Positions 2,163-64,000 of a stretch of DNA of 64,000 nucleotides are shown here, piece by piece; the first letter of the stretch is position 1, and every line of letters begins with the position of its first letter. The stretch spans positions 2,650 to 66,649 of the forward strand of contig UQKK01000007.1 in assembly GCA_900541505.1 (NCBI GenBank), in the 5' to 3' direction. The notes under the pieces are model-generated. The model was not told the DNA's origin. It searched no databases and saw only the letters and a program-made list of their open reading frames with translations. Origin of the DNA: an uncultured Ruminococcus sp. GTDB taxonomy: Bacteria; Bacillota; Clostridia; Lachnospirales; Lachnospiraceae. Position numbers and translations under genes: made by a program.

Positions 2163-2419
2163 TTTTCCTTCTCTCTTTATCCTTTTGATTCTGCGCCCCT
2201 GCCTGCGCAATCGCTTTAGCGACATGTTACCTCATGCGCTCGTGTGCTCTTCGTTCCACTTCGGTCGGCGCAGAACAAATGTCCCCCGGACATTTTGCGC
2301 CCCACCCGGAGGGCTTTTTATTGTATAGGAAATTCGGAATAATTTCCTATACAATAAAAAACTCCCCAACGTTTATCATACGCCGGGAAGCCTTTTTGTA
2401 CAAGCCTTACTTTGCAATG

Positions 2420-2673: not shown

Positions 2674-2706
2674 TTCAAGACTCGCCCGCGAGTCTTGGCG
2701 CGGGAG
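2674..2706. repeat. 33-bp GC-rich hairpin repeat, copy 1 (ttcaagactcgcccgcgagtcttggcgcgggag)
   Basis: Identical 33-mer also at 28920-28952. Two overlapping, mutually exclusive inverted repeats (CAAGACTCG/CGAGTCTTG and CCCGCG/CGCGGG). Sits ~27 nt upstream of the HPr-like gene start. Confidence 0.7.
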
Positions 2707-2816
2707 TCATCTCCCTCTGATATAGTATTACGCAAGCTTTCCTCTCGAAGTTATTGGCATCATATCACAAATTTTGGAAATAAAAAGGGAGAAATTTCTA
2801 AAAAAGGGGGAATAAT

Positions 2817-14305: not shown

Positions 14306-14454
14306 ACTCTTCTCCAATTCAGGACCCGCCGCCCGGAGGCGGAAGTCTTCTAGTGTCTGATATATACACTCATTCTATTTTAACATATTACCTGTATATT
14401 TTAACGGAGTAATTGGAGCAGACTGTAACAAAAAGCATACCTCACATGCCAAAA

Positions 14455-14500
14455 AACAAACTCCTGCGGAATTGCACTTGAAAAGCAGGAGCAGCCGTAT
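14455..14500 (-). terminator. Rho-independent terminator downstream of spoIIID
   Basis: Minus strand CTCCTGC-loop-GCAGGAG followed by TTTGTTTTTT. Confidence 0.5.
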
Positions 14501-14539
14501 CTTAATTCAAGACTCGCTTACTCCTGCTTTTCACTCTTT

Positions 14540-14794
14540 TTATCCATGCTGATGGAGGTATTTCTCTCTCGTAGCAAGTCCGCCCCGTATATGGCGCTCT
14601 GATTTGTTGGTATCCAGAATCTTCCTCGCTTCCCCCGCCAGCGACGGATTTATCAGAAGAAGACGTTCTGTCACATCTTTATGTACCGTAGACTTGGAAA
14701 TTCCAAATTTCTTAGCTGTCTGCCTCACGGTTGCGCTGTTTTCTATAATATAATTTGCAATCTCCACGGCTCTTTCCTCAATATAATCTTTCAA
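14540..14794 (-). CDS. spoIIID: Stage III sporulation transcriptional regulator SpoIIID
   Basis: MKDYIEERAVEIANYIIENSATVRQTAKKFGISKSTVHKDVTERL... is closely collinear with B. subtilis SpoIIID (MHDYIKERTIKIGKYIVETKKTVRVIAKEFGVSKSTVHKDLTERL). Confidence 0.85.
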   Translation of the reverse strand: MKDYIEERAVEIANYIIENSATVRQTAKKFGISKSTVHKDVTERLLLINPSLAGEARKILDTNKSERHIRGGLATREKYLHQHG

Positions 14795-15005
14795 AAAAAT
14801 CCCCCTGAAAACATTGTTTTTACAATGTATGCAAGGAAAGGAAAAGTCATTCTTTATACGGGACAGATTCGGGGATTTTTATATTTTCACCAGCGCAGAA
14901 TAGAATATAATTTATTTTCTATACTTTATAGTGCGAAACCCGCCATCCCGGAGGGAATGGGGTTACGGTGTGCCCTTTAGGGTATGCTTTATCCATGAAT
15001 ACTTT

Positions 15006-15899
15006 TCATGATTGAATTAAATAATCTATCGCATATTTAATTTGCGCCTCTAATTGTTCTACATTCCAAATCGCAACGGTTATATTATTTGTCGGCACAG
15101 TGTTTCTATCAGTACTGATTAAACTTATCTTTTCTTCATATTCATTATAATAAAACCTGTGTTCTTGATTCAGATAGTCATAAAAACCAAGCTCTAGTTC
15201 TCGTGTATTAGACACAACGATGTCTTCACCTGTTTTTTCAGATACATAATTTTTTAAATTTTCAAAAGCAATATCTTTATTAAATACTGCTGTCTTAGGT
15301 TCAAATATCAGTCTACTGTTATCACTGTTAAGATTATATTGATTATTTTGTTCACGATAGATTGCAACTAGACTAATTTCATATGCTTCTCCTTTATACT
15401 GGAAATTGTACCTTTCATAACTATTAAATGTCACATATGACGCCATCCCTTTTTCATTTACAATTTCATATCCATCTCTGTAAGGCTTAATACTCAATAA
15501 AGGGGCTGTTTCTCTATCTTCTATTTCAACCTGTTGCTTTGCTATTTCATTTGACTGAACAGTCATAGAAGTTGTTACCATTGACACTAATACGATTGAT
15601 GTCAAAAGGGTATTGATTGTACCCTTTTTTTGAACTTTATCTATGAATTGACTCAACCTTTCACTTCTAAAGCAATTCACTATGTACATGAGCATTATAT
15701 AGAGCACTAATATAACTATAAGGAAATTATCCTTTAATATTCTTATAAATTTGTTTTCTCCAACAGTAAGAAAATATATGATGGCTATTGTTGTTAAAGC
15801 TGTAGAAATAATTCCTTTTACATTCCAGATAATATTATATCTTTTATCATTGCATTGCATTTTCTCTTTTGTATTCACAAAACTTTTCCTCCTAAACAT
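15006..15899 (-). CDS. Hypothetical membrane protein: three N-terminal TM helices plus a ~190-aa soluble domain, in an AT-rich island
   Basis: Long ORF in a conspicuously AT-rich stretch. Three hydrophobic helices. No recognisable family. Adjacent to a TA pair. Confidence 0.55.
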   Translation of the reverse strand: MFRRKSFVNTKEKMQCNDKRYNIIWNVKGIISTALTTIAIIYFLTVGENKFIRILKDNFLIVILVLYIMLMYIVNCFRSERLSQFIDKVQKKGTINTLLTSIVLVSMVTTSMTVQSNEIAKQQVEIEDRETAPLLSIKPYRDGYEIVNEKGMASYVTFNSYERYNFQYKGEAYEISLVAIYREQNNQYNLNSDNSRLIFEPKTAVFNKDIAFENLKNYVSEKTGEDIVVSNTRELELGFYDYLNQEHRFYYNEYEEKISLISTDRNTVPTNNITVAIWNVEQLEAQIKYAIDYLIQS

Positions 15900-15947
15900 G
15901 AAAAATGGCTATATTGTCCGCATACAATATAACCACATCTTTCATTT

Positions 15948-16259
15948 TTATAAATATTTCTCTGTATCTCTCGCACCATAAAGAAATCTACGCACTTCCA
16001 TCACATCTCCGATAACCACATAATAAATCACATAATTTCTTATATAAATTCGATAATAAGGATATTTTCTTTTTTTCACAGACGGGTATGGTTCAAATGC
16101 CAATGGATTGTTCAATCGTTCCAGTATTGCTGTCTCTACATCATTTATAAGTTTCTCTGCCGCATCTGGATTTTTCAGCACATTGGTAATGTAACTCACG
16201 GTCTGCACAATATCCTGTTCAAACAGTGGCAAATACCGAAGTTTGTATTTTCTATTCAT
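15948..16259 (-). CDS. Type II toxin, RelE/ParE family
   Basis: 103 aa, C-terminal YYRIYIRNYVIYYVVIGDVMEVRRFLYGARD is typical of ParE/RelE. Overlaps the antitoxin gene by 8 nt. Confidence 0.8.
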   Translation of the reverse strand: MNRKYKLRYLPLFEQDIVQTVSYITNVLKNPDAAEKLINDVETAILERLNNPLAFEPYPSVKKRKYPYYRIYIRNYVIYYVVIGDVMEVRRFLYGARDTEKYL

Positions 16260-16512
16260 TATGAACTACACTCCTCACATTTCGGAACACATTCTCATGG
16301 CTTAATCTTTCTTCGGTCGTTTCCGCCACCCTGTCTGCTTCATCCAGTTTCATTTCTACATTATCTACGAGACTCGCATATTCTTGCAGACTTAACACCA
16401 CCATTGCTCCATATCCATTTTTGGTCAAATATACAGGTTGTCCCTCATTGACGAGCATCTCAATCTCAGGAAACTTATTTCTTAAGTCTGAAACAGGTCT
16501 AATCTGTATCAT
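16252..16512 (-). CDS. Type II antitoxin, Phd/YefM family
   Basis: 86 aa, MIQIRPVSDLRNKFPEIEMLVNEGQPVYLTKNGYGAMVVLSLQEY is a Phd/YefM fold signature. Located upstream of and overlapping the toxin. Confidence 0.8.
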   Translation of the reverse strand: MIQIRPVSDLRNKFPEIEMLVNEGQPVYLTKNGYGAMVVLSLQEYASLVDNVEMKLDEADRVAETTEERLSHENVFRNVRSVVHNE

Positions 16513-22838: not shown

Positions 22839-23791
22839 ACATACTGGAAACCATCACAGAACGCACAAGAGAACGCATTGCCGAAGAAAAGCGAAACATC
22901 CCGCTGACAGAAATCCGGACGCGCGCGGAGCAAGCCGCACAGACAGAAACCCGCAAGCGAGCGGAGCAAGCCGCGCAGACGGAAACCCGCAAGCGAGCGG
23001 AGCAAGCCGCGCAGGTGACGCAGAAATCAGCCGCGAAAAAGGAGCCGCCCTGCGCGAAACACTGTGAAGCAGACTTATCCGCTTTTCTTCCCTTTGAGGC
23101 TGCTTTGCGTGCGCCGGGACTTTCCTTCATCTGTGAGGTGAAGAAGGCGTCCCCCTCCAAAGGACTCATTGCCCCGGATTTCCCCTATCTGAACATTGCG
23201 CGGGACTATGAGGCGGCGGGAGCTGCCGCCATCTCCTGTCTCACAGAGCCCTACTGGTTCAAAGGAAGCGACCGCTATCTGGAGGAAATCGTCTCACAGG
23301 TCTCCATCCCCGTACTGCGGAAGGATTTCACCTATGACGAGTACATGATTTACCAGGCGAAAGCCCTGGGTGCCTCCGCCATCCTGCTCATTTGTTCTGT
23401 GCTGGATGACGCACAGCTTAAGGCATTTCACAGTCTCGCTTGGGAGCTTGGCTTAAGCGCTCTGGTGGAGACGCACAGCGAGGAGGAGATTGAACGGGCG
23501 CAGAGAATCGGCGCCTCCATCATCGGAGTCAACAACCGGAATCTCAAAGATTTCACTGTGGATATCCAAAACAGCATCCGCTTGAGGAAACTGGTGGACA
23601 GCGATACCGTATTTGTTTCCGAGAGCGGAATCACAGGCGCAAAAGACATGCGCGCCCTATATGAAAACGGCACCGACGCGGTGTTGATTGGGGAACTGCT
23701 CATGCGCTCCGGTGACCGCAGGGCAGCGCTTGCAGCATTAAAAATGGATGTAGATTTAAACACAGATGTAGATATGGGGAAAATGGAATGA
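22835..23791 (+). CDS. trpC: Indole-3-glycerol-phosphate synthase with a repeat-encoded N-terminal insertion
   Basis: C-terminal ~250 aa is a typical IGPS ([12 protein letters not shown]...[14 protein letters not shown]). N-terminal region contains ~2.6 copies of a 12-aa repeat ([12 protein letters not shown]). Confidence 0.85.
22925..23020 (+). repeat. In-frame 36-bp tandem repeat (~2.6 units) inside trpC
   Basis: gcggagcaagccgcacagacagaaacccgcaagcga / gcggagcaagccgcgcagacggaaacccgcaagcga / gcggagcaagccgcgcaggtgacg. Confidence 0.85.
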
Positions 23792-28877: not shown

Positions 28878-28907
28878 TTGTCAACTGCGGGGAAATTATT
28901 TTATAAT
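28878..28907 (+). promoter_or_regulatory. Putative sigma-A promoter of rpoN
   Basis: TTGTCA, 18 nt, TATAAT. The 33-bp repeat element begins ~13 nt downstream of the -10. Confidence 0.45.
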
Positions 28908-28919
28908 AGAGTTTAGGCA

Positions 28920-28952
28920 TTCAAGACTCGCCCGCGAGTCTTGGCGCGGGAG
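28920..28952. repeat. 33-bp GC-rich hairpin repeat, copy 2, at the rpoN transcription start region
   Basis: Exact 33/33 match to 2674-2706. Located between the rpoN -10 element and the rpoN RBS. Confidence 0.7.
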
Positions 28953-29023
28953 AAAACGACAGAGATTCCTTTTCATTTGCTTGCCTTCCCTCAATGAAGA
29001 TAGAATACGAAAGTGGTGTTTTT

Positions 29024-44131: not shown

Positions 44132-44200
44132 ACAAAGATGGCGGACATTGCATAAGACAGGCAGGGATTACATGAAACGAGCGGGATTGCGTGAAACAAG

Positions 44201-44285
44201 CAGGAATTGTACGAAACGAGCGGGTATTGCTTCTCCTTCTCCGGCTGTACCGGAATTTCAGGGGAAGCAATACCCGCCCGTTTTC
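44201..44285. terminator. Convergent terminator between treR and metG
   Basis: GAAACGAGCGGGTATTGCTTC ... GAAGCAATACCCGCCCGTTTTCTT. Preceded by three 20-bp tandem repeats (44161-44220). Confidence 0.6.
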
Positions 44286-46249: not shown

Positions 46250-46380
46250 CTAAAATAAATCGTTCCGTTTACGGAACTTTCGCGCCGGGCGCGGTCGCTT
46301 CGGCGACACCTTTTCCTCTTCGCGCCCGTGCGCATCGCACGGATTTTTTATTCAATGGGGAACGAAGTTTCCCATTGAAT
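46250..46380 (-). promoter_or_regulatory. Unclassified conserved structured 5'UTR element, copy A (between the metG T-box terminator and the metG RBS)
   Basis: ~125 nt with 4-5 hairpins. Collinear at nucleotide level with 52378-52500, including compensatory changes in hairpin 1. Confidence 0.5.
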
Positions 46381-46722
46381 AAAAAAATCCCGTCTTCTAT
46401 AAAGAAGACGGGTCATAACCGTGGTACCACTTCTTGGTTCATCCCTGCCTCTCGGCAGAGACCTCAGTAAGTGCCTGAACACTTGCCGCTGTAATGGGCG
46501 GACCCATCACATACTTACATGGAAAATTCACATGTGCAGAACTCTCTGCTGCTTTTCGTTCCTTTCCAGCTCGTATGTGCTGCTCAAAAGCCATCTTCCG
46601 CCAGTCTCCATACATCCCCTCTCACCTGCCGGGATTCTCTGTGATATATCCAAAGGCGTACTCTCTTTTTCATCGCTTTTCGTTATTGTAGTGAAAATCG
46701 TAACACAAAAAACTTTCGTTTG
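46381..46722 (-). promoter_or_regulatory. T-box riboswitch leader (tRNA-Met; AUG specifier) with its promoter
   Basis: Minus strand: promoter TTGACA-17-TACGAT (~46722-46690). AGAGA/GGUGAGAGG stem I. Specifier context gcggaagATGg. T-box GTGGTACCACGG (~46419-46431). Terminator GACCCGTCTTC/GAAGACGGG + TTTTTTT (46381-46413). Confidence 0.7.
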
Positions 46723-52377: not shown

Positions 52378-52500
52378 AAAGAGTTCCGCTTGCGGAACTC
52401 TCGCGCCGAGCGCGGTCGCTTTAGCGACAAACTTCCACTGCGCGCGAGTGCGCATCAGCGGAGCGTTTTATTTAATAGGGAACGAAGTTTCCTATTAAGT
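52378..52500 (-). promoter_or_regulatory. Unclassified conserved structured 5'UTR element, copy B (between the speA leader terminator and the speA RBS)
   Basis: See copy A. Shared blocks: GGAAACTTCGTTCC hairpin, GATGCGCAC..GCGCG, GTCGCNNAAGCGACCGCGCYCGGCGCGARAGTTCCGYAARCGGAAC. Confidence 0.5.
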
Positions 52501-52551
52501 AAAAAACACAGGTGAGTCAGCTTACGCTTCGTGCCGCTTCACCTGTGTTTA
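52501..52551 (-). terminator. Intrinsic terminator inside the speA leader
   Basis: Minus strand AACACAGGTGA-loop-TCACCTGTGTT + TTTTT. Confidence 0.65.
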
Positions 52552-58655: not shown

Positions 58656-59129
58656 CTATTCATCATCGCCCAGTATTTCATAGGGCTTAGGCTTATGTTT
58701 CGGATTGCGGAAAGCGCTTGCGACTGCACCCTCGCCGTACATGTTCGGCTCTGTTGAAGCCAACGGCGCACTCTGATGACCGTACCCTTTGAATACCTCC
58801 ATCACTCGCCCCGCCTTTTCCTGAAACGCCTTGCTGTCATCTGTATCAATTACATCCAGAAGCTCCACAGGCAAACCTTTGTCCAACAGGTACTCTTTAC
58901 AGTCCAGCCTGCTCTCTTTCCGTCTTATGCCCGTCTCCATTTCAGCAAGTTCTTGAGCCCTGGCTTCATTTTCACTGTTCTTCTCCGCTGCCGCTGTTGC
59001 CTTCTGACGGCTCAATCGTTCTCTGACAATCCGATCAACGTCTGCCTGTGTGAATTTCTTTTCATCAGCGCCCTGCGGCTCATTTTTAGATTCAACCTGT
59101 TCTTCTGTCACATTCTGTCTTTCTTCCAT
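58656..59129 (-). CDS. Phage capsid scaffolding protein (DUF4355-like)
   Basis: FTQADVDRIVRERLSRQKA motif is typical of DUF4355 scaffolding proteins. Acidic/coiled composition. Confidence 0.6.
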   Translation of the reverse strand: MEERQNVTEEQVESKNEPQGADEKKFTQADVDRIVRERLSRQKATAAAEKNSENEARAQELAEMETGIRRKESRLDCKEYLLDKGLPVELLDVIDTDDSKAFQEKAGRVMEVFKGYGHQSAPLASTEPNMYGEGAVASAFRNPKHKPKPYEILGDDE

Positions 59130-59558
59130 CTTTTCTCTCCTCCATTTTTCCGTTCGAGTTACGTGTTACCAATACAAAAGGCGCGGAAACAATCGCAGTC
59201 ATGGCACACTGCAATCATTCCCACGCCCTAAGGCTTACACTATCAAAGCAAGGAGTTAAGCTTCTTTAGTGCGGTCTCTGTATTGTTACATAAATTATAC
59301 AACACCTATATCTTTATTGCAATCTCTTTGTTTCGATATATGCCCTTTTATACTGTCCCTTCTGGGGCTGTAGCTTCCAGGACTTCACTACAGGGAGCAG
59401 CAGCCGAATCACTTTCGCCAGTTCTTTATCTTCTGTATAGGATATCCTTATTTTTACGCTCACACTCTTCCTCCTCTTCATCCAGCAGCATAATATACGC
59501 TGTATCTTCGTCCACTCCGTAAATATCCATGATTTCATACAATCTGAATCTTCTTACT

Positions 59559-59810
59559 TCATTCATGCATCTGCCCCTTCCTTCTTGCGCGCTCTGCTCG
59601 CTTACCGTATATATAGCCAAGCACAAAAATGTCACTCGCTGCAGCTAATGTGAACGAATACGGTCTTGCTTCGCTAATCTGTCGAACCTGTTTTCTCGCT
59701 TCATCATTCAGCCAAAAGATTTCAGAGCCGCGCTGCTCTCCCAACAGTCTCATTGTATCGTTCTTCTGATAAAGGCTCGGCGGGAGTTCTCTTCCATATA
59801 CATCTTTCAT
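59559..59810 (-). CDS. Small hypothetical protein of the satellite element
   Basis: 83 aa ORF with an AGAGGAAAT RBS. Followed by an overlapping 46-aa acidic ORF (59426-59566, ATGCATGAATGA overlap). Confidence 0.35.
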   Translation of the reverse strand: MKDVYGRELPPSLYQKNDTMRLLGEQRGSEIFWLNDEARKQVRQISEARPYSFTLAAASDIFVLGYIYGKRAERARRKGQMHE

Positions 59811-59896
59811 ATTTCCTCTTGCTCCTCTCCTCAAATTTCTGTTATTATGTAGCTGTATCCTTTCTAATGCCCTGCCCGGCTTTAGGGATATATCAC

Positions 59897-59935
59897 CCTG
59901 TAGGAAGTTATTGCTCCCTACAGGGCTTTTTTTTA
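59897..59935 (+). terminator. Hairpin + T8 (CCCTGTAGG-loop-CCTACAGGG TTTTTTTT)
   Basis: Perfect 9-bp stem followed by eight T on the plus strand. Lies just beyond the iteron block. Confidence 0.4.
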
Positions 59936-59989
59936 CGTTTAACTACATACATTGTAAACTTTATAGTTTACTCTTACTCGTCAACCACT

Positions 59990-60165
59990 CCTATATACAG
60001 TGGAGAAACCGTCCAGTACGGTGCAAACCCTTGTAAATACTGGGCTTCATTTACTCGGCGGTCACCGTCCAGTACGGTAACTTGTACTTGCGTACTCGGC
60101 GGTCACCGTCTAGTACGGTAACCCCTTGTAAAATAAGGCTTTTAACCGTACTCGGCGGTTTTCCC
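59990..60165. repeat. Iteron array (putative replication origin of the satellite)
   Basis: At least three direct repeats of ACTCGGCGGTCACCGTC(C/T)AGTACGGTAAC plus partial copies (CCGTCCAGTACGGTGCAAACCCTTGTAAATA / ...GTAACCCCTTGTAAAATA). Immediately 3' of the Rep ATPase gene. Confidence 0.6.
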
Positions 60166-61152
60166 AGTGTCTTTAAGAGCAATGATAAATTTCTTGGGTT
60201 TAAATCCTACAGACCACACCCTAGTGACATCATCTTTCTTCAATGCCGTTTTTGCGTCTTTTAATGCATGTTTACTGATACTGTTCGCCGCTGCCAATTC
60301 GTCCAGCTCTGAAACCTCCATTTCTTTGTGCTCCGTGAGTGTCTCAATGATAAACTCTTTCGCGTCTTCCACTACTGGACGAGTATTCCGATTCCGCACG
60401 TCCTCCTCTATAAACTCCCGGTCTTTCTTCGGTGTATAGGCTTTGAATACCGGGACGCACTCGTCAAGTTCGTACAAAACAGACCTCTCCAGTCTTCCCC
60501 AGTTTGATTTTTCATGCGATATATAGCGAATGTCACTGTCCTGTGTTATTCCAGTCATCAAGACCGACCTGGAAGAATCCCATATATCCGAGCTATCCGC
60601 TATCCGCTTCCTTCCCCACACACCAGACTGCTTATTTGCGTGCGCTATAATGATTGTTGTAAGTCCATACTTCTCACCGTAGCCTATCAGAGGGGAAAAG
60701 CACTTCCTCATGGCGTTTCTGTCTCCCATGCGTAAATTCGCAGGGACGAACGCCTGTAATGGGTCAAATACGATGACTCCCGGCTTATGCGTTTCGACAA
60801 TCTCCCGCAGCAGCTCCCCGTCAAAATTGAGGTCAACAAACCTGTCATCTTCTGGAGATATAAAACTGATACGCTCCAAGTCTGCGCCGTTCACCTCAAG
60901 CCTTGCCCGCAAAACATACGACCAGGAGTCTTCTGCTGATAACACAAGAACGTCCTCCGGCTCACTATTGAAGGGGACTTGTCCACCAAGGAGGAACGAC
61001 GGTCTCCCTGTCGTTATGCTCGCCACAAGAGAGCACCATATTGATGTCTTCCCTACACCGCCCTCGCCCGCTATGGTGGTGATTCCGTATCTGGGGATGT
61101 ACCCAGGTATGAGCCATTCCGGTTCTTTTATGCTTACTGCACTGGCTTTCAC
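60142..61152 (-). CDS. AAA_25 / RecA-like ATPase (plasmid/PICI RepA-type replication protein)
   Basis: Walker A TIAGEGGVGKTS, Walker B GVIVFDPLQA, AAA_25-like core. Upstream of the iterons. Confidence 0.7.
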   Translation of the reverse strand: MKASAVSIKEPEWLIPGYIPRYGITTIAGEGGVGKTSIWCSLVASITTGRPSFLLGGQVPFNSEPEDVLVLSAEDSWSYVLRARLEVNGADLERISFISPEDDRFVDLNFDGELLREIVETHKPGVIVFDPLQAFVPANLRMGDRNAMRKCFSPLIGYGEKYGLTTIIIAHANKQSGVWGRKRIADSSDIWDSSRSVLMTGITQDSDIRYISHEKSNWGRLERSVLYELDECVPVFKAYTPKKDREFIEEDVRNRNTRPVVEDAKEFIIETLTEHKEMEVSELDELAAANSISKHALKDAKTALKKDDVTRVWSVGFKPKKFIIALKDTGKTAEYG

Positions 61153-61169
61153 AATTGTCGGCGGCTTCT

Positions 61170-61697
61170 TTAGTTGTCTGGCTTTTCCTTTGTCGCAGAC
61201 AATGCCGTTTTTTTCTGCTTCAATAATTCTAATTTCTTGTTCAATAGCTTCAATTTCTTCGTCGATAGTCCCGATAGTCCCGTTTCTTGTTGCTTCCGTG
61301 ACTCATTCACCACCTTTCTTTTCAGATTTTCAAATTCCTTCACACATTGCCCTCTGTACCACTGTGCAGCACTCTTCATTTCCTTGTCATGCTCTTCCTG
61401 CCACTCTGACCGGACAGCCTCGTAATGTTTCCATGCCCTACGACACCCAAGACTTTCGAGCCGTGTGAGTGCGCCCTCTGCGAATCCCGGCGTTGTAATT
61501 TCATAACCGAGGATTTTCTTAAATGTACTCTTATAGAGCTTCATTCCAGGCACCAAGGACTCTATGAATGTTTCCGCATTTGTCTGACTGTCTGGTGCGC
61601 GAGGTTTCCACTCAAACATCTCCTCCAGTTTCCCGGACTGCTCCAGCATGTCCATTTCTGCGCAGATTTGAGCGAAAACATCGTTAGACACTCTCAT
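61170..61697 (-). CDS. Hypothetical protein (satellite replication/regulation module)
   Basis: 175 aa, no recognisable family, lysine-rich coiled C-terminus. Translationally coupled to the upstream HTH gene (ATGA). Confidence 0.45.
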   Translation of the reverse strand: MRVSNDVFAQICAEMDMLEQSGKLEEMFEWKPRAPDSQTNAETFIESLVPGMKLYKSTFKKILGYEITTPGFAEGALTRLESLGCRRAWKHYEAVRSEWQEEHDKEMKSAAQWYRGQCVKEFENLKRKVVNESRKQQETGLSGLSTKKLKLLNKKLELLKQKKTALSATKEKPDN

Positions 61698-61927
61698 GAC
61701 CTGCTCCTCTCTTTAAATGCTCTCATGCGCTCATGGTCGATGGCGTCCTCCGGCTTGAGCCCTAAAGCCCGGCAGACCTTCCCGAATCGCTCCATCTTAA
61801 CCATATATCCCTTGCGTACCCGGTACACAATACTGACAGATACCCCGGCTTTGTCCGCAATCTCCTGCGGAGACATGCAGGACGCCACCATTGCATTAAT
61901 AATCACTTCTACTCTTCCGCATACCAT
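61694..61927 (-). CDS. Small HTH DNA-binding protein (excisionase / regulator-like)
   Basis: 77 aa, SPQEIADKAGVSVSIVYRVRKG HTH. Confidence 0.5.
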   Translation of the reverse strand: MVCGRVEVIINAMVASCMSPQEIADKAGVSVSIVYRVRKGYMVKMERFGKVCRALGLKPEDAIDHERMRAFKERSRS

Positions 61928-62109
61928 GTTGTTTCCTCCTCTCTCATGCCAATGTCAGTGCAACCTTCATGACTCAACTGGTTAATAATGCCCCATGCTT
62001 GAAAATCACTGTATGCTGTCCGGGTGATTTTCCTGCCCTTATACTTCGCCGTTATAATATGTTTCATGTCCTGCTCCTTTCAAAAAATCCATGCCCTACG
62101 TGAGGATTT

Positions 62110-62331
62110 TTAATCTGAATCGGTTTCTTTGGTAACTTCTCCGCTTTTTGGTCTATGCCCGTGTCTATACGCATAAAGAGGGCACTTTTTCACAGTGCAT
62201 AGCCTAACTTCTCTTGTCTGCCCGTTACAGCAATCAAGGCACTTCGCCCGAATTGCTTTCATTGGTGTAAGCTTTGTCACATCCTGCTCCTTTCTGTTGC
62301 GATGTCGCAACAACTCATCTTCTGACCTCAT
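62110..62331 (-). CDS. Small zinc-ribbon protein
   Basis: 73 aa, CLDCC...CTVKKCPLYAYRHG four-Cys cluster. Start lies inside a 25-bp repeat (MRSEDE...). Confidence 0.45.
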   Translation of the reverse strand: MRSEDELLRHRNRKEQDVTKLTPMKAIRAKCLDCCNGQTREVRLCTVKKCPLYAYRHGHRPKSGEVTKETDSD

Positions 62332-62346
62332 GCCCTGCCCGCTATG

Positions 62347-62544
62347 TCAGATTTCTGTGTCAATAATTTCCGTTACATCTACGCCGAGAGCCTTGGCAAT
62401 CTTTCCGGCTGTCTCTGGTCTAATTCCTTTGCCTCCTATCGCGCTGCAAAGCGTTCCTTTTGCTATTCCAGCCGCCTCAAGGTCTTTCTGTCCCATGCAC
62501 GCCCTTGCTCTAGCAAGCTCATACTTCTGTCTATTGATTTTCAT
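62347..62544 (-). CDS. XRE-family HTH regulator (Cro-like), divergent from the cI-like gene
   Basis: MKINRQKYELARARACMGQKDLEAAGIAKGTLCSAIGGKGIRPETAGKIAKALGVDVTEII HTH_3. AGAGGTGA RBS. Confidence 0.6.
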   Translation of the reverse strand: MKINRQKYELARARACMGQKDLEAAGIAKGTLCSAIGGKGIRPETAGKIAKALGVDVTEIIDTEI

Positions 62545-62694
62545 TTTATTTTTTTCACCTCTCTTCTCTAACACACACTTTTGATTGTTACAATAACATT
62601 CTAACACCTTCATTTGATTGTGTCAACACGCAAACACAAACTTTTGATTGCGTTTCATAGGTCTGGATGTTATACTTATTTTGAGGTGAATAAA

Positions 62695-63171
62695 ATGGAG
62701 AACGGAAAAAATATAAAAGCTGCCCGCATTTACAGAGGACTAACACAACAAAAGTTGGGTGAGCTCTGCGGACTCGCAACCGGCACGATACAACAATATG
62801 AATTAAACAAACGAAATCCTAAAATTGAACAAGTTGCAAAAATAGCAGACGCGCTAAATCTGGCGTATAATATTTCAGGACATGGCGCAATATCTTTTTA
62901 TGACTTTGTAGATACAACCAACCCAGACTCAAAAGCCGTTGATTTCAATAATCAACAATTATCTTCTGCACCTGCTACCAAAGAAAAAAAAGAAGCTATG
63001 CAAAAAGAAATGCAAGAAATAATACGGAATGGCATTTCGATGGATTTGACAGCTAAAGAACTCAGTATTGTCAATAAAATGAAGGAGCTGAATGACGCCG
63101 GACAGGATAAGGCTGTTGAACAGGTGGAAATGCTTGCCAAAATCCCTGAATACCGCAAAGACGCCGAATAA
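62695..63171 (+). CDS. XRE-family repressor (CI-like)
   Basis: MENGKNIKAARIYRGLTQQKLGELCGLATGTIQQYELNKRNPKIEQVAKIADAL HTH_3 + ~100-aa C-terminal domain. GAGGTGAA RBS. Divergent from the Cro-like gene. Confidence 0.65.
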   Translation: MENGKNIKAARIYRGLTQQKLGELCGLATGTIQQYELNKRNPKIEQVAKIADALNLAYNISGHGAISFYDFVDTTNPDSKAVDFNNQQLSSAPATKEKKEAMQKEMQEIIRNGISMDLTAKELSIVNKMKELNDAGQDKAVEQVEMLAKIPEYRKDAE

Positions 63172-63232
63172 CCGCACCAATTTCATCTTCTGACCTCATG
63201 CCCTGCCCGGTAGAGAAAAGGAGAATGATAAC

Positions 63233-64000
63233 ATGGCACTGATAACATGCCCGGAGTGCTCCGGGAAGGTGTCTGATAAGGCATATTCTTGCCCTCATTG
63301 CGGTTATCCCATGAAAGACGGGATAAGCTCACCCTCACAACTGAAACGCCCAGGAAAGAGGCGTAAGAACGGTACAGGGACAATAGTAAAGTTATCCGGC
63401 AAGAGACGGAATCCCTTCCAGGTGCGTGTAAATACTCGCATTGATGAGTGGGGATATCCCCGGTATGATGTGCTGGGGACCTTCCCGGACCGTGTATCTG
63501 CGGACATTGCTCTCGCGGAGTACAATAAGAGCCCTTATGATGTCGGCAATAGAAAAAAGACGTTTGAAGAGGTCTTCCGCGAATGGTATAAGTGGAAGTA
63601 CAAGAAGTCTGTGGATACTCCAAGCAGAAAGACAAACTCTCAATACTGCTGCATAGCTGCTTATAAACACTGTGAGGCTTTGCACCATCGCAAATTGTCC
63701 GAGCTCACCGTTCTGGAGCTTCAAGCGACACTCGACCAGTACAACCTCTCACACTCTATGCTTGAGCACATTAAAACTCTGCTAAATCAGATGTACAAAT
63801 ATGCTCTGCAGTTTGAGATTGTGGATAAGAATCGCGCAGAGTTCGTCCAGATTACCAAAGAGGATGATACAGAGAAAGGCGTCCCTTTCACGAAGGAAGA
63901 ACGTCAAAAGTTATGGAATCACAAGGACGAGCCTTTTGTAGACACCATCCTAATTTACATTTATTCTGGCTGGCGTATCAATGAATTGGCAAGGATGCCG
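63233..64000 (+). CDS. int: Tyrosine-type site-specific integrase (3' end beyond the window). Missing from the ORF track because it is open at the edge.
   Basis: MALITCPECSGKVSDKAYSCPHCGYP (Zn ribbon) ...KRPGKRRKNGTGTIVKLSGKRRNPFQVRV (AP2-like N-terminal DNA-binding), then SAM-like core-binding region (...LQATLDQYNLSHSMLEHIKTLLNQMYKYAL). AAGGAG RBS. Confidence 0.75.
   Translation, partial: MALITCPECSGKVSDKAYSCPHCGYPMKDGISSPSQLKRPGKRRKNGTGTIVKLSGKRRNPFQVRVNTRIDEWGYPRYDVLGTFPDRVSADIALAEYNKSPYDVGNRKKTFEEVFREWYKWKYKKSVDTPSRKTNSQYCCIAAYKHCEALHHRKLSELTVLELQATLDQYNLSHSMLEHIKTLLNQMYKYALQFEIVDKNRAEFVQITKEDDTEKGVPFTKEERQKLWNHKDEPFVDTILIYIYSGWRINELARMP

What the first reader, a model, noticed from the sequence alone, without database searches (positions are those of the whole stretch)
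2674..2706. Identical 33-bp GC-rich element with two mutually exclusive hairpins at the rpoN transcription start and upstream of an HPr-like gene
ttcaagactcgcccgcgagtcttggcgcgggag is present twice: at 2674-2706 (about 27 nt upstream of the HPr-like ORF on the minus strand) and at 28920-28952 (between the rpoN -10 element and the rpoN RBS on the plus strand). A 12-bp partial copy (ttcaagactcgc) is at ~14505. It can fold either as CAAGACTCG-CCCG-CGAGTCTTG or as CCCGCG-AGTCTTGG-CGCGGG, and the two stems share nucleotides, so it behaves like a bistable element. Both host genes belong to the sigma-54 / PTS regulatory world: sigma-54 itself, and an HPr-like protein lacking His15 but retaining the Crh-like regulatory Ser region. 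A shared operator or RNA switch co-regulating them would be new. Alternatively it is a small REP-like repeat.
Basis: seen in the sequence. Interest (0 to 1): 0.6.

Follow-up and report, generated by a model that had tools for sequence, protein, structure and literature searches.

The report
Dispersed hairpin repeat, not a regulator
The identical 33-base sequence near rpoN and an HPr-like gene is the end piece of a hairpin-rich repeat scattered between unrelated genes across Lachnospiraceae gut bacteria, present in some strains and absent in others, so it is not a shared switch for these two genes.

Summary
The 33-mer occurs exactly twice (2674-2706, 28920-28952), and the 12-base piece at 14506 is a true relic.

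The interpretation does not hold. The 33-mer is the terminal hairpin plus GC clamp of a modular, multi-hairpin intergenic repeat family. Full forms are about 135-220 nt and mini forms about 50 nt. The family turned up in more than 160 loci from many Lachnospiraceae genera, next to unrelated genes. It has strong stem covariation and matches no Rfam family.

The window holds seven family pieces, all on the minus strand. They lie upstream of metG (after its T-box), a polyamine operon, MatE, the HPr-like gene and a response regulator, inside the spoIIID terminator, and in the PPase/rpoN spacer.

Conspecific strains lack or partly delete the HPr, spoIIID and polyamine-operon copies. One close relative has rpoN with no element. 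Another lineage carries two stem-breaking substitutions.

The second "bistable" hairpin is specific to this variant and shows no covariation.

Best reading: a REP/BIME/ERIC-like non-autonomous repeat that is co-transcribed and decays by microhomology deletions. How it moves is unknown.

The parts
2674..2706 (-). 33-mer copy 1: terminal hairpin hp1 (CAAGACTCG-CGGG-CGAGTCTTG on the minus strand), a 5' GC clamp CTCCCGCGC and 3' AA. It lies 26 nt upstream of the HPr-like ATG, in the family's usual sense orientation.
2674..2724 (-). Whole 51-nt mini-element TATATCAGAGGGAGATGACTCCCGCGCC-hp1-AA: the family's left-end motif fused to its right end. Positions 2678-2719 (42 nt) are absent in strains L168/L175. 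A 33-nt internal piece is deleted in L169 and L171-173.
28920..28952 (-). 33-mer copy 2: a 5'-truncated fragment of the same module in the divergent H+-PPase/rpoN spacer. It is sense to the PPase gene (243 nt upstream of its ATG) and antisense to rpoN, about +7 to +40 of the putative rpoN transcript.
14506..14518 (-). Relic AGCGAGTCTTGAA (3' half of hp1) inside the loop of the spoIIID terminator hairpin. Other strains have the complete mini-element here. The window allele has a 45-nt deletion between AGCG repeats.
14318..14364 (-). Decayed mini-element (TATATCAGACACTAGAAGACTTCCGCCTCCGGGCGGCGGGTCCTGAA) immediately upstream of the RBS of the AraC-type response regulator. Other strains keep the consensus end CGAGTCTTGAA.
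2175..2365 (-). Diverged full-length family member between the HPr-like stop and the MatE start. It contains a 53-nt hairpin module (2248-2300) identical to one inserted in the polyamine-operon element of strain L203.
46255..46391 (-). Full-length family member with different stems but the same conserved core and architecture, lying between the T-box terminator and the metG RBS.
52378..52511 (-). Full-length family member just upstream of the RBS of the Orn/Arg decarboxylase gene (first gene of a polyamine operon). The 128-nt unit is absent in strain L205 and carries an extra 53-nt module in L203.
28878..28907 (+). Promoter-like TTGTCA-18-TATAAT upstream of rpoN. This is context only, not part of the repeat.
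   Evidence: hexamers conserved in diverged lineage

Best explanation
The 33-mer is the 3'-terminal module (a 9-bp GC-rich hairpin plus half of a GC clamp) of a non-coding, multi-hairpin, modular repeat family dispersed in intergenic DNA throughout the Lachnospiraceae.

Full-length members are about 135 nt, or about 220 nt with an extra module. They have four parts: a long AT-rich hairpin, a conserved core (AAACGCTCCGCGAGGATGCGCA), a long clamp stem enclosing a second small hairpin, and the terminal hairpin. Mini forms keep only the left-end motif and the terminal hairpin. The HPr-side copy is such a mini form, and the rpoN-side copy is a 5'-truncated fragment of one.

Shown here:
- multi-copy dispersal next to unrelated genes
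- stems kept by compensatory changes
- modules gained or lost between strains
- decay by deletions between 3-9-nt direct repeats
- location in transcribed leaders, with a roughly 3:1 bias for one orientation relative to local transcription and GC skew

Inferred, not shown: the family spreads as a non-autonomous element whose hairpin ends are recognised in trans by an enzyme encoded elsewhere, by analogy with REP/RAYT or IS200/IS605 ends.

At the two loci the element is a passenger. At most it adds a stable hairpin to the 5' leaders of the HPr-like mRNA (sense) and the rpoN mRNA (antisense copy). It does not couple the two genes.
For: - Dispersal. The scan for the CGGG-loop form CAAGACTCGCGGGCGAGTCTTG found 49 more in metagenomes. 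Flanking genes are all different, and no transposase cluster recurs.
- Common extended architecture.
- Covariation. 97.9% of cells paired and 17 of 29 pairs compensatory, against 0 of 500 shuffles and slid controls of 7 or fewer. The model also finds copies with compensatory hp1 variants that the seed pattern would not match.
- The window holds seven pieces, all on the minus strand, before unrelated genes.
- One full copy lies between a T-box (90 bits, E = 3e-20) and the metG RBS, so it is transcribed in sense.
- Strain polymorphism. There are three alleles at the HPr locus. A 128-nt unit is absent and a 53-nt module is added at the polyamine locus. The spoIIID site carries either a full mini-element or the relic.
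- The rpoN-side copy is absent in L200 and carries two non-compensatory substitutions in L196-199.
- Orientation. The forward strand is the G-rich strand in 111 of 151 cases. In co-directional spacers the ratio is 37 forward to 11 reverse.
- Logan k=31 contigs end inside the 33-mer.
Against: - No mobilising enzyme, clear terminal inverted repeats or consistent target-site duplication was found.
- All 'empty' alleles can also be read as deletion derivatives, so a new insertion was never directly seen.
- Copy number per complete genome could not be counted.
- Sequence conservation of the terminal hairpin across genera is higher than usual for REP elements. Together with the frequent position 15-50 nt before an RBS, this leaves room for a host-level function.
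- The seed pattern biases the sample towards one hairpin sequence.
Confidence: 0.85

Rival explanations
1. The family, including the 33-mer, is a host-serving cis-acting RNA module. Placed just 5' of ribosome-binding sites, its stable hairpins would protect the downstream mRNA from 5' exonucleolytic decay or insulate the RBS from upstream structure. Its dispersal would then reflect recruitment rather than selfish spread. This overlaps with the best explanation rather than excluding it.
For: - Roughly 3:1 sense-orientation bias relative to local coding direction.
- Many copies end 15-50 nt before an RBS and ATG.
- A full copy is tolerated between the T-box and the RBS of essential metG, and is fixed in all strains seen.
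- Stems are kept by compensatory changes, and there is a conserved unpaired core.
- The terminal hairpin sequence is conserved across genera.
Against: - G.T and A.C mismatches in stems are equally frequent (23 vs 25), so there is no sign of selection on one RNA strand.
- Copies are lost or truncated between conspecific strains and accumulate stem-breaking substitutions.
- About a quarter of copies are antisense or sit after stop codons.
- The orientation bias is confounded with replication direction.
Confidence: 0.2
2. One reading: the 33-mer is a shared operator or bistable RNA switch that co-regulates rpoN (sigma-54) and the HPr-like gene.
For: - Exact identity of 33 nt at two loci.
- Both copies probably lie in 5' leaders.
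- Two mutually exclusive hairpins within 1.7 kcal/mol of each other.
Against: - The copies have opposite orientation relative to the two genes.
- The same module sits next to more than 160 unrelated genes and five other sites in the window.
- The element is absent or deleted in conspecific strains at the HPr locus.
- A relative has rpoN without the element.
- The hairpin is degraded in another lineage.
- The alternative hairpin has no covariation, with 75.3% paired against 74.8% in shuffles. It is impossible in the commonest subfamily, at +7.6 kcal/mol.
Confidence: 0.03
3. The two direct 33-bp repeats are attL/attR-type junctions of a 26-kb integrated island.
For: The two copies are in direct orientation, 26,246 bp apart.
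Against: - The interval holds housekeeping genes: two-component systems, ABC sugar transport, spoIIID, the trp operon and H+-PPase. No integrase was found.
- The copies vary independently between strains.
- The repeat is a member of a dispersed family.
Confidence: 0.01

Closest known systems
REP / BIME elements of Enterobacteria and Pseudomonas (REPINs mobilised by RAYT transposases)
   Same: - Short GC-rich imperfect palindromes dispersed in extragenic, transcribed DNA.
- Combined with other motifs into mosaic units.
- Stems kept while sequences differ between subfamilies.
- Non-coding, with many copies per genome.
   Different: - No sequence similarity and no conserved GTAG-type tetranucleotide.
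- The host is Firmicutes (Lachnospiraceae).
- No RAYT gene was seen.
- The unit is a fixed series of four different hairpins rather than inverted REP doublets.
- Many copies lie just 5' of an RBS rather than 3' of genes.
ERIC (IRU) sequences of Enterobacteria and BOX elements of Streptococcus pneumoniae
   Same: - Units of about 130 nt with extensive secondary structure in transcribed intergenic regions.
- Modular build, with longer forms made by internal insertions and shorter forms by deletions.
- Unknown mobilising enzyme.
- Presence/absence polymorphism between strains.
   Different: - Unrelated sequence.
- A different phylum from ERIC.
- The comparison with ERIC and BOX rests on general knowledge, not on a test run here.
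Non-autonomous derivatives of IS200/IS605-family elements (PATEs)
   Same: - Hairpins at both ends, with no evident terminal inverted repeats and no consistent target duplication.
- Orientation correlated with the G-rich (leading) strand.
- Mini forms retain both ends.
   Different: - No autonomous IS with matching ends, and no TnpA/TnpB gene near any of 167 loci.
- No conserved target tetranucleotide at the left flank.
Riboswitch / attenuator type RNA switches
   Same: - Located in 5' leaders.
- Two mutually exclusive hairpins can be drawn in this one variant.
   Different: - No conserved aptamer and no Rfam match.
- The alternative pairing is not conserved.
- No functional coherence among the downstream genes.

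Membership tests
REP/BIME (RAYT-associated) | Short (20-40 nt) GC-rich imperfect palindrome able to form a stable hairpin | tested here: met
   A 9-bp stem with a 4-nt loop, -13.6 kcal/mol as RNA.
REP/BIME (RAYT-associated) | Many dispersed extragenic copies within one genome | tested here: inconclusive
   Seven pieces in this 64-kb window. At least six separate loci of E. oxidoreducens appear among the 80 listed rows of a truncated scan. No complete genome could be counted.
REP/BIME (RAYT-associated) | A single-copy RAYT (Y1 HUH transposase) gene flanked by the repeats | tested here: inconclusive
   No transposase domain in any window ORF searched, and no recurrent protein cluster next to 167 loci. 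Only a small part of any genome was seen.
REP/BIME (RAYT-associated) | Conserved tetranucleotide (GTAG-type) next to the palindrome | tested here: not met
   The flanks of hp1 are CGCG/GCGC on one side and AA/AC on the other, with no GTAG.
MITE | Terminal inverted repeats | tested here: inconclusive
   Read by eye. The left end TTTAACTCAG/TATATCAG and the right end ...GAGTCTTGAA share at most TCA(A)GA. No dedicated test was run.
MITE | Target-site duplication of fixed length | tested here: inconclusive
   A 9-nt direct repeat ATAGGAAAC flanks the 128-nt unit at the polyamine locus. The HPr locus has none beyond 1 nt. The repeats may equally be deletion substrates.
MITE | Small, non-coding, multi-copy, with related autonomous IS | tested here: inconclusive
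   Small, non-coding and multi-copy: met. No related autonomous element was found. Viral contigs gave 1 hit and plasmids gave none.
Riboswitch / bistable RNA switch | Alternative pairings both supported by conservation or covariation | tested here: not met
   The alternative hairpin is 75.3% paired against a shuffle mean of 74.8% (202/500), with 1 compensatory pair. Its energy is -8.9 or +7.6 kcal/mol in the consensus variants.
Riboswitch / bistable RNA switch | Fixed orientation and position relative to functionally related genes | tested here: not met
   The copy is antisense to rpoN and sense to the HPr-like gene. Downstream genes across loci are unrelated.
Transcription-factor operator shared by rpoN and HPr-like gene | Conserved at the orthologous promoters of close relatives | tested here: not met
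   Absent or deleted at the HPr locus in 6 of 10 conspecific contigs shown, absent upstream of rpoN in L200, and mutated in L196-199.
Intrinsic terminator | GC-rich hairpin followed by a U run | tested here: not met
   No T run follows the hairpin on either strand, and the terminator scan reports nothing at either copy.
Any Rfam 15 family | Match to a curated covariance model | tested here: not met
   No hit at gathering score in the window. No credible hit at E<=1-10 on loci with full elements.

The most novel reading that the evidence does not exclude
The repeat family as a whole is an undescribed, Lachnospiraceae-wide class of structured element. It has a conserved core and interchangeable hairpin cassettes, and it is preferentially kept in sense orientation immediately 5' of ribosome-binding sites, even between a T-box and metG. 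It could be a new kind of leader module that shapes mRNA stability or translation, or a new class of hairpin-ended mobile DNA with an unknown enzyme.
Probability: 0.25. Interest if true: 0.6.

Novelty: new member of a known kind. Interest (0 to 1): 0.33.

Why it matters
For the finding as stated, the result is deflating. There is no sigma-54/PTS co-regulatory switch here, only a passenger repeat.

The family itself seems not to be catalogued. It has no Rfam match, and the searchable papers gave no description of it. It is common in Lachnospiraceae, a dominant group of gut bacteria.

- It breaks short-read assemblies: k=31 contigs end inside it.
- It creates strain-level indels in 5' leaders and terminators.
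- It can mislead motif or regulon searches, as it did here.

A census of the family, and identification of what moves it, would help genome annotation and strain typing in gut metagenomes. It would also test whether such hairpin cassettes influence expression of the genes they precede.

Tried and rejected
- **att sites of a 26-kb island.** Rejected, because the interval is housekeeping.
- **Known RNA family.** Rfam found nothing for the element at gathering score or at relaxed E-values. It only uncovered a T-box next to one copy.
- **Literature.** Searches for REP, MITE or structured repeats in Lachnospiraceae or Clostridiales found nothing relevant.
- **Phage or plasmid origin.** One hit in 2.9 million viral contigs and none in plasmids.
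- **Adjacent mobilising gene.** All-against-all clustering of ORFs from 167 loci found only ordinary families such as ABC ATPases. ORFs ending 101 nt upstream turned out to be different host genes whose TAA stop lies in the element's TTTAA end.
- **Outward promoter from the TTGAC/TTGAA end.** Spacing to the RBS is too short, and only a weak 9/12 match appears at the PPase side.
- **Strand test for RNA-level selection.** G.T versus A.C gave 23 vs 25, which is uninformative or negative.
- **Separating transcription-linked from replication-linked orientation bias.** The two are confounded, with only 4 discordant loci.
- **Exact 33-mer outside this species.** The metagenome search for the CGGG-loop hairpin returned no copy with the full 33-mer, and among all fetched loci it occurs only in conspecific ones.
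- **Species name.** The cluster look-up returned no names.

Full report
**1. Observation**

The 33-mer TTCAAGACTCGCCCGCGAGTCTTGGCGCGGGAG occurs exactly twice, at 2674-2706 and 28920-28952, both on the + strand. There are no further matches at up to three mismatches and none in shuffled sequence.

The first copy ends 26 nt before the ATG of a 75-aa minus-strand ORF. That ORF matches Pfam PTS-HPr (E = 2e-7) but falls below the NCBIfam cut-off. In an alignment with B. subtilis HPr and Crh (sequences recalled from memory), it lacks the segment around His15 and keeps the Lys-Ser of the Ser46 region.

The second copy lies in the 316-nt divergent spacer between an H+-pyrophosphatase gene (minus strand) and rpoN (TIGR02395, 373 bits). 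It sits 13 nt downstream of a promoter-like TTGTCA-18-TATAAT. The 12-mer TTCAAGACTCGC is at 14506-14517.

**2. The 33-mer belongs to a large repeat family**

All came from Lachnospiraceae or unclassified Eubacteriales. The genera include Lachnospira, Eubacterium oxidoreducens, Anaerostipes, Blautia, Mediterraneibacter, Hespellia, Catenibacillus, Butyrivibrio and Lachnoanaerobaculum, often with several loci per genome. The CGGG-loop variant found 49 more stretches in metagenomes.

Printing the flanks showed that the hairpin is the end of a longer conserved unit. On the strand I call forward, the unit reads as follows:
- a long AT-rich hairpin (for example TTTAACTCAGTCGGAG-TACAA-GCTCCGACTGAGTTAAA)
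- a conserved core, ACGCTCCGCGAGGATGCGCA
- a clamp stem (CGGATTCGG ... CCGAATCCG, flanked by GCGC) enclosing a small hairpin (GTCTGC-TGAA-GCAGAC)
- the terminal hairpin, followed by AA or AC

A 220-nt form carries an extra module. Mini forms join the left-end motif directly to the terminal hairpin.

Loop sequence and the GC-rich flank define the element's orientation consistently: 48:1 for loop CGAG and 44:3 for loop CTCG.

In the window, the HPr-side copy read on the minus strand is TATATCAGAGGGAGATGACTCCCGCGCC-CAAGACTCGCGGGCGAGTCTTG-AA. That is a 51-nt mini-element, with the left end of one subfamily fused to the right end. The rpoN-side copy shares only the last 33 nt.

**3. Structure**

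I aligned 23 diverse family members with two further window copies that have entirely different stems: 46255-46391 and 52378-52511, both on the minus strand. The alignment shows the same architecture and the same core throughout.

RNAalifold predicts the small GNRA-type hairpin, the clamp stem with its inner hairpin, and the terminal hairpin. Of 29 pairs, 17 have compensatory changes. Counting on the named structure gives 97.9% of cells paired, a value reached by 0 of 500 shuffles. The slid controls reach at most 7 compensatory pairs.

A covariance model built from this alignment recovers additional copies in the fetched loci. Their terminal hairpins differ from the seed pattern in a compensatory way, for example CAAGTCTCG...CGAGACTTG and CAAAACTCG...CGAGTTTTG.

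G.T and A.C mismatches in the stems are equally frequent (23 vs 25). So there is no sign that one RNA strand is under selection.

No Rfam family matches the element.

**4. The 'bistable' idea**

As RNA, the 9-bp hairpin has -13.6 kcal/mol and the alternative CCCGCG/CGCGGG hairpin has -11.9. The ensemble is about 97:3.

The alternative depends on the unusual CCCG loop of this variant. With the common CTCG loop it drops to -8.9 kcal/mol. In the commonest subfamily it cannot form at all (+7.6).

Across the family alignment, its pairs are no better than shuffled (75.3% vs 74.8%; 202 of 500 shuffles reach it), with one compensatory pair.

In full-length members, the GCGCGGG segment is instead the 3' half of the clamp stem. 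The second hairpin is therefore a by-product of truncation, not a conserved feature.

**5. Other copies in the window**

I found seven family pieces, all forward on the minus strand. That strand is the G-rich, main coding strand here.

- A diverged full copy lies between the HPr-like stop and the MatE start (about 2175-2365). It contains a 53-nt module identical to one found in another strain's polyamine-operon element.
- The HPr mini-element.
- A decayed mini copy at 14318-14364, just before the RBS of an AraC-type response regulator.
- The relic at 14506-14518, inside the spoIIID terminator loop.
- The PPase/rpoN fragment.
- A full copy between a T-box leader (RF00230, 90 bits, E = 3e-20, just under the gathering score) and the metG RBS.
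- A full copy before the Orn/Arg decarboxylase gene of a polyamine operon.

The downstream genes have nothing in common. The metG case shows that the element is transcribed in sense as part of a leader, without blocking an essential gene.

**6. Variation between strains**

Contigs carrying the identical HPr-like protein show three alleles of its leader:
- the full mini-element
- an internal 33-nt deletion between ACT repeats that leaves half of the hairpin
- an allele lacking 42 nt (GTAATACTATAT|TGGAGAAG)

At the polyamine operon, strain L205 lacks exactly the 128-nt unit. In filled alleles that unit is flanked by the direct repeat ATAGGAAAC. Strain L203 carries an extra 53-nt hairpin module inside the element.

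At the spoIIID terminator, four of the ten contigs shown carry a complete mini-element. It is nearly the same as the HPr one, with loop CGAG. The window instead has a 45-nt deletion between AGCG repeats.

The rpoN-side copy is identical in close strains. In a lineage whose spacer is about 8% diverged, it has two substitutions that break or weaken the 9-bp stem. Contig L200 has an rpoN in the same 90% protein cluster but a different upstream gene. It has no element at all, and homology starts only at the RBS for the ATG equivalent to window 29024.

Logan contigs (k=31) end inside the 33-mer, as expected for a repeat.

**7. Position and orientation**

With crude gene calls, the terminal hairpin faces a gene start in 64 cases and a gene end in 36. 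The other side faces an end in 60 cases and a start in 23. In co-directional spacers the ratio is 37 forward to 11 reverse.

Many copies end 15-50 nt before an RBS and ATG. In several loci the upstream gene's TAA stop is the element's own TTTAA end, so the element fills the whole spacer.

The forward strand is the G-rich strand in 111 of 151 cases. Coding is mostly forward in 61 cases and mostly reverse in 17. These two biases are confounded and could not be separated.

No transposase-like protein recurs near the 167 loci, and none was found among the window ORFs searched. The hairpin is almost absent from viral contigs (1 hit) and the full element is absent from plasmids.

**8. Interpretation**

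The data fit a non-autonomous, hairpin-ended, mosaic repeat of the REP/BIME, ERIC or BOX kind.

Dispersal, structural constraint, modular gain and loss, co-transcription, and decay through deletions between short direct repeats are all shown here.

The means of spread is only inferred. Recognition of the hairpin ends by an enzyme encoded elsewhere, as for REP/RAYT or IS200/IS605, would explain three things:
- mini forms that keep both ends
- compensatory stem changes between subfamilies
- the strand bias

However, every 'empty' allele seen can also be a deletion product, and no enzyme, inverted terminal repeats or consistent target duplication was found.

A host-level RNA role, such as a leader hairpin that stabilises or insulates the mRNA, remains possible for the family. 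I give it about 0.2. The evidence against it is the symmetric mismatch spectrum and the ready loss of copies.

Its fallback, a REP-like repeat, is.

**9. Novelty and score**

The kind of element is well known. This particular family appears not to be catalogued, with no Rfam match and nothing in the searchable literature. I classify it as a new member of a known kind.

As a finding about rpoN and HPr it is ordinary. As a repeat family of a major gut clade it has moderate descriptive interest.

Noticed in passing
window 46401-46682 (-): T-box leader upstream of metG scores 90 bits (E = 2.9e-20), just under Rfam's gathering score of 93. It is therefore missed in a gathering-threshold scan. The repeat element is wedged between its terminator and the metG RBS.
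   Followed up: partly
window 44147-44224: Two tandem 39-nt repeats in the convergent spacer between metG and a GntR/UTRA regulator gene. Conspecific contigs differ by exactly 78 nt there (spacer 197 vs 119 nt).
   Followed up: partly
window 28994 vs 29024: The longest rpoN ORF starts at 28994, and that 469-aa form is what public gene calls carry. Homology with a relative that has a different upstream region begins only at the RBS AAGGTGGTG for ATG 29024, so the 459-aa form is probably the real protein. Other strains are called at 465, 475 or 495 aa.
   Followed up: partly
window 15001-16300: Low-GC patch (0.30 against about 0.48) holding a ParE-family toxin ORF (15948-16259, minus) and a 297-aa ORF with no Pfam match (15006-15899, minus).
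   Followed up: no
window 22902-23014: Three tandem 36-nt repeats (83-100% identical) at the junction of the trpD-like and trpC-like ORFs inside the trp operon.
   Followed up: no
window 58656-63635: Phage-like patch: a DUF4355 scaffolding-type protein, an AAA_25 protein, an HTH_3 repressor-like protein, several ORFs with no Pfam match, and short near-exact repeats (60052-60081 / 60093-60122 and 62315-62344 / 63183-63212).
   Followed up: no
L155 (metagenome contig JABLTR010025758.1), just upstream of the hairpin at 2373-2394 (-): A truncated family element (starting in the middle of the inner hairpin) directly abuts the CCA end of a tRNA gene.
   Followed up: no
window 14479-14533 and 14540-14794 (-): An 84-aa SpoIIID gene whose terminator hairpin has an unusually large loop. 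The loop is the remains of a repeat-element insertion.
   Followed up: yes
window 2248-2300 (-) and L203 (polyamine-operon leader): The same 53-nt hairpin module occurs in two different family elements in different strains, so single hairpin cassettes move or recombine between elements.
   Followed up: partly
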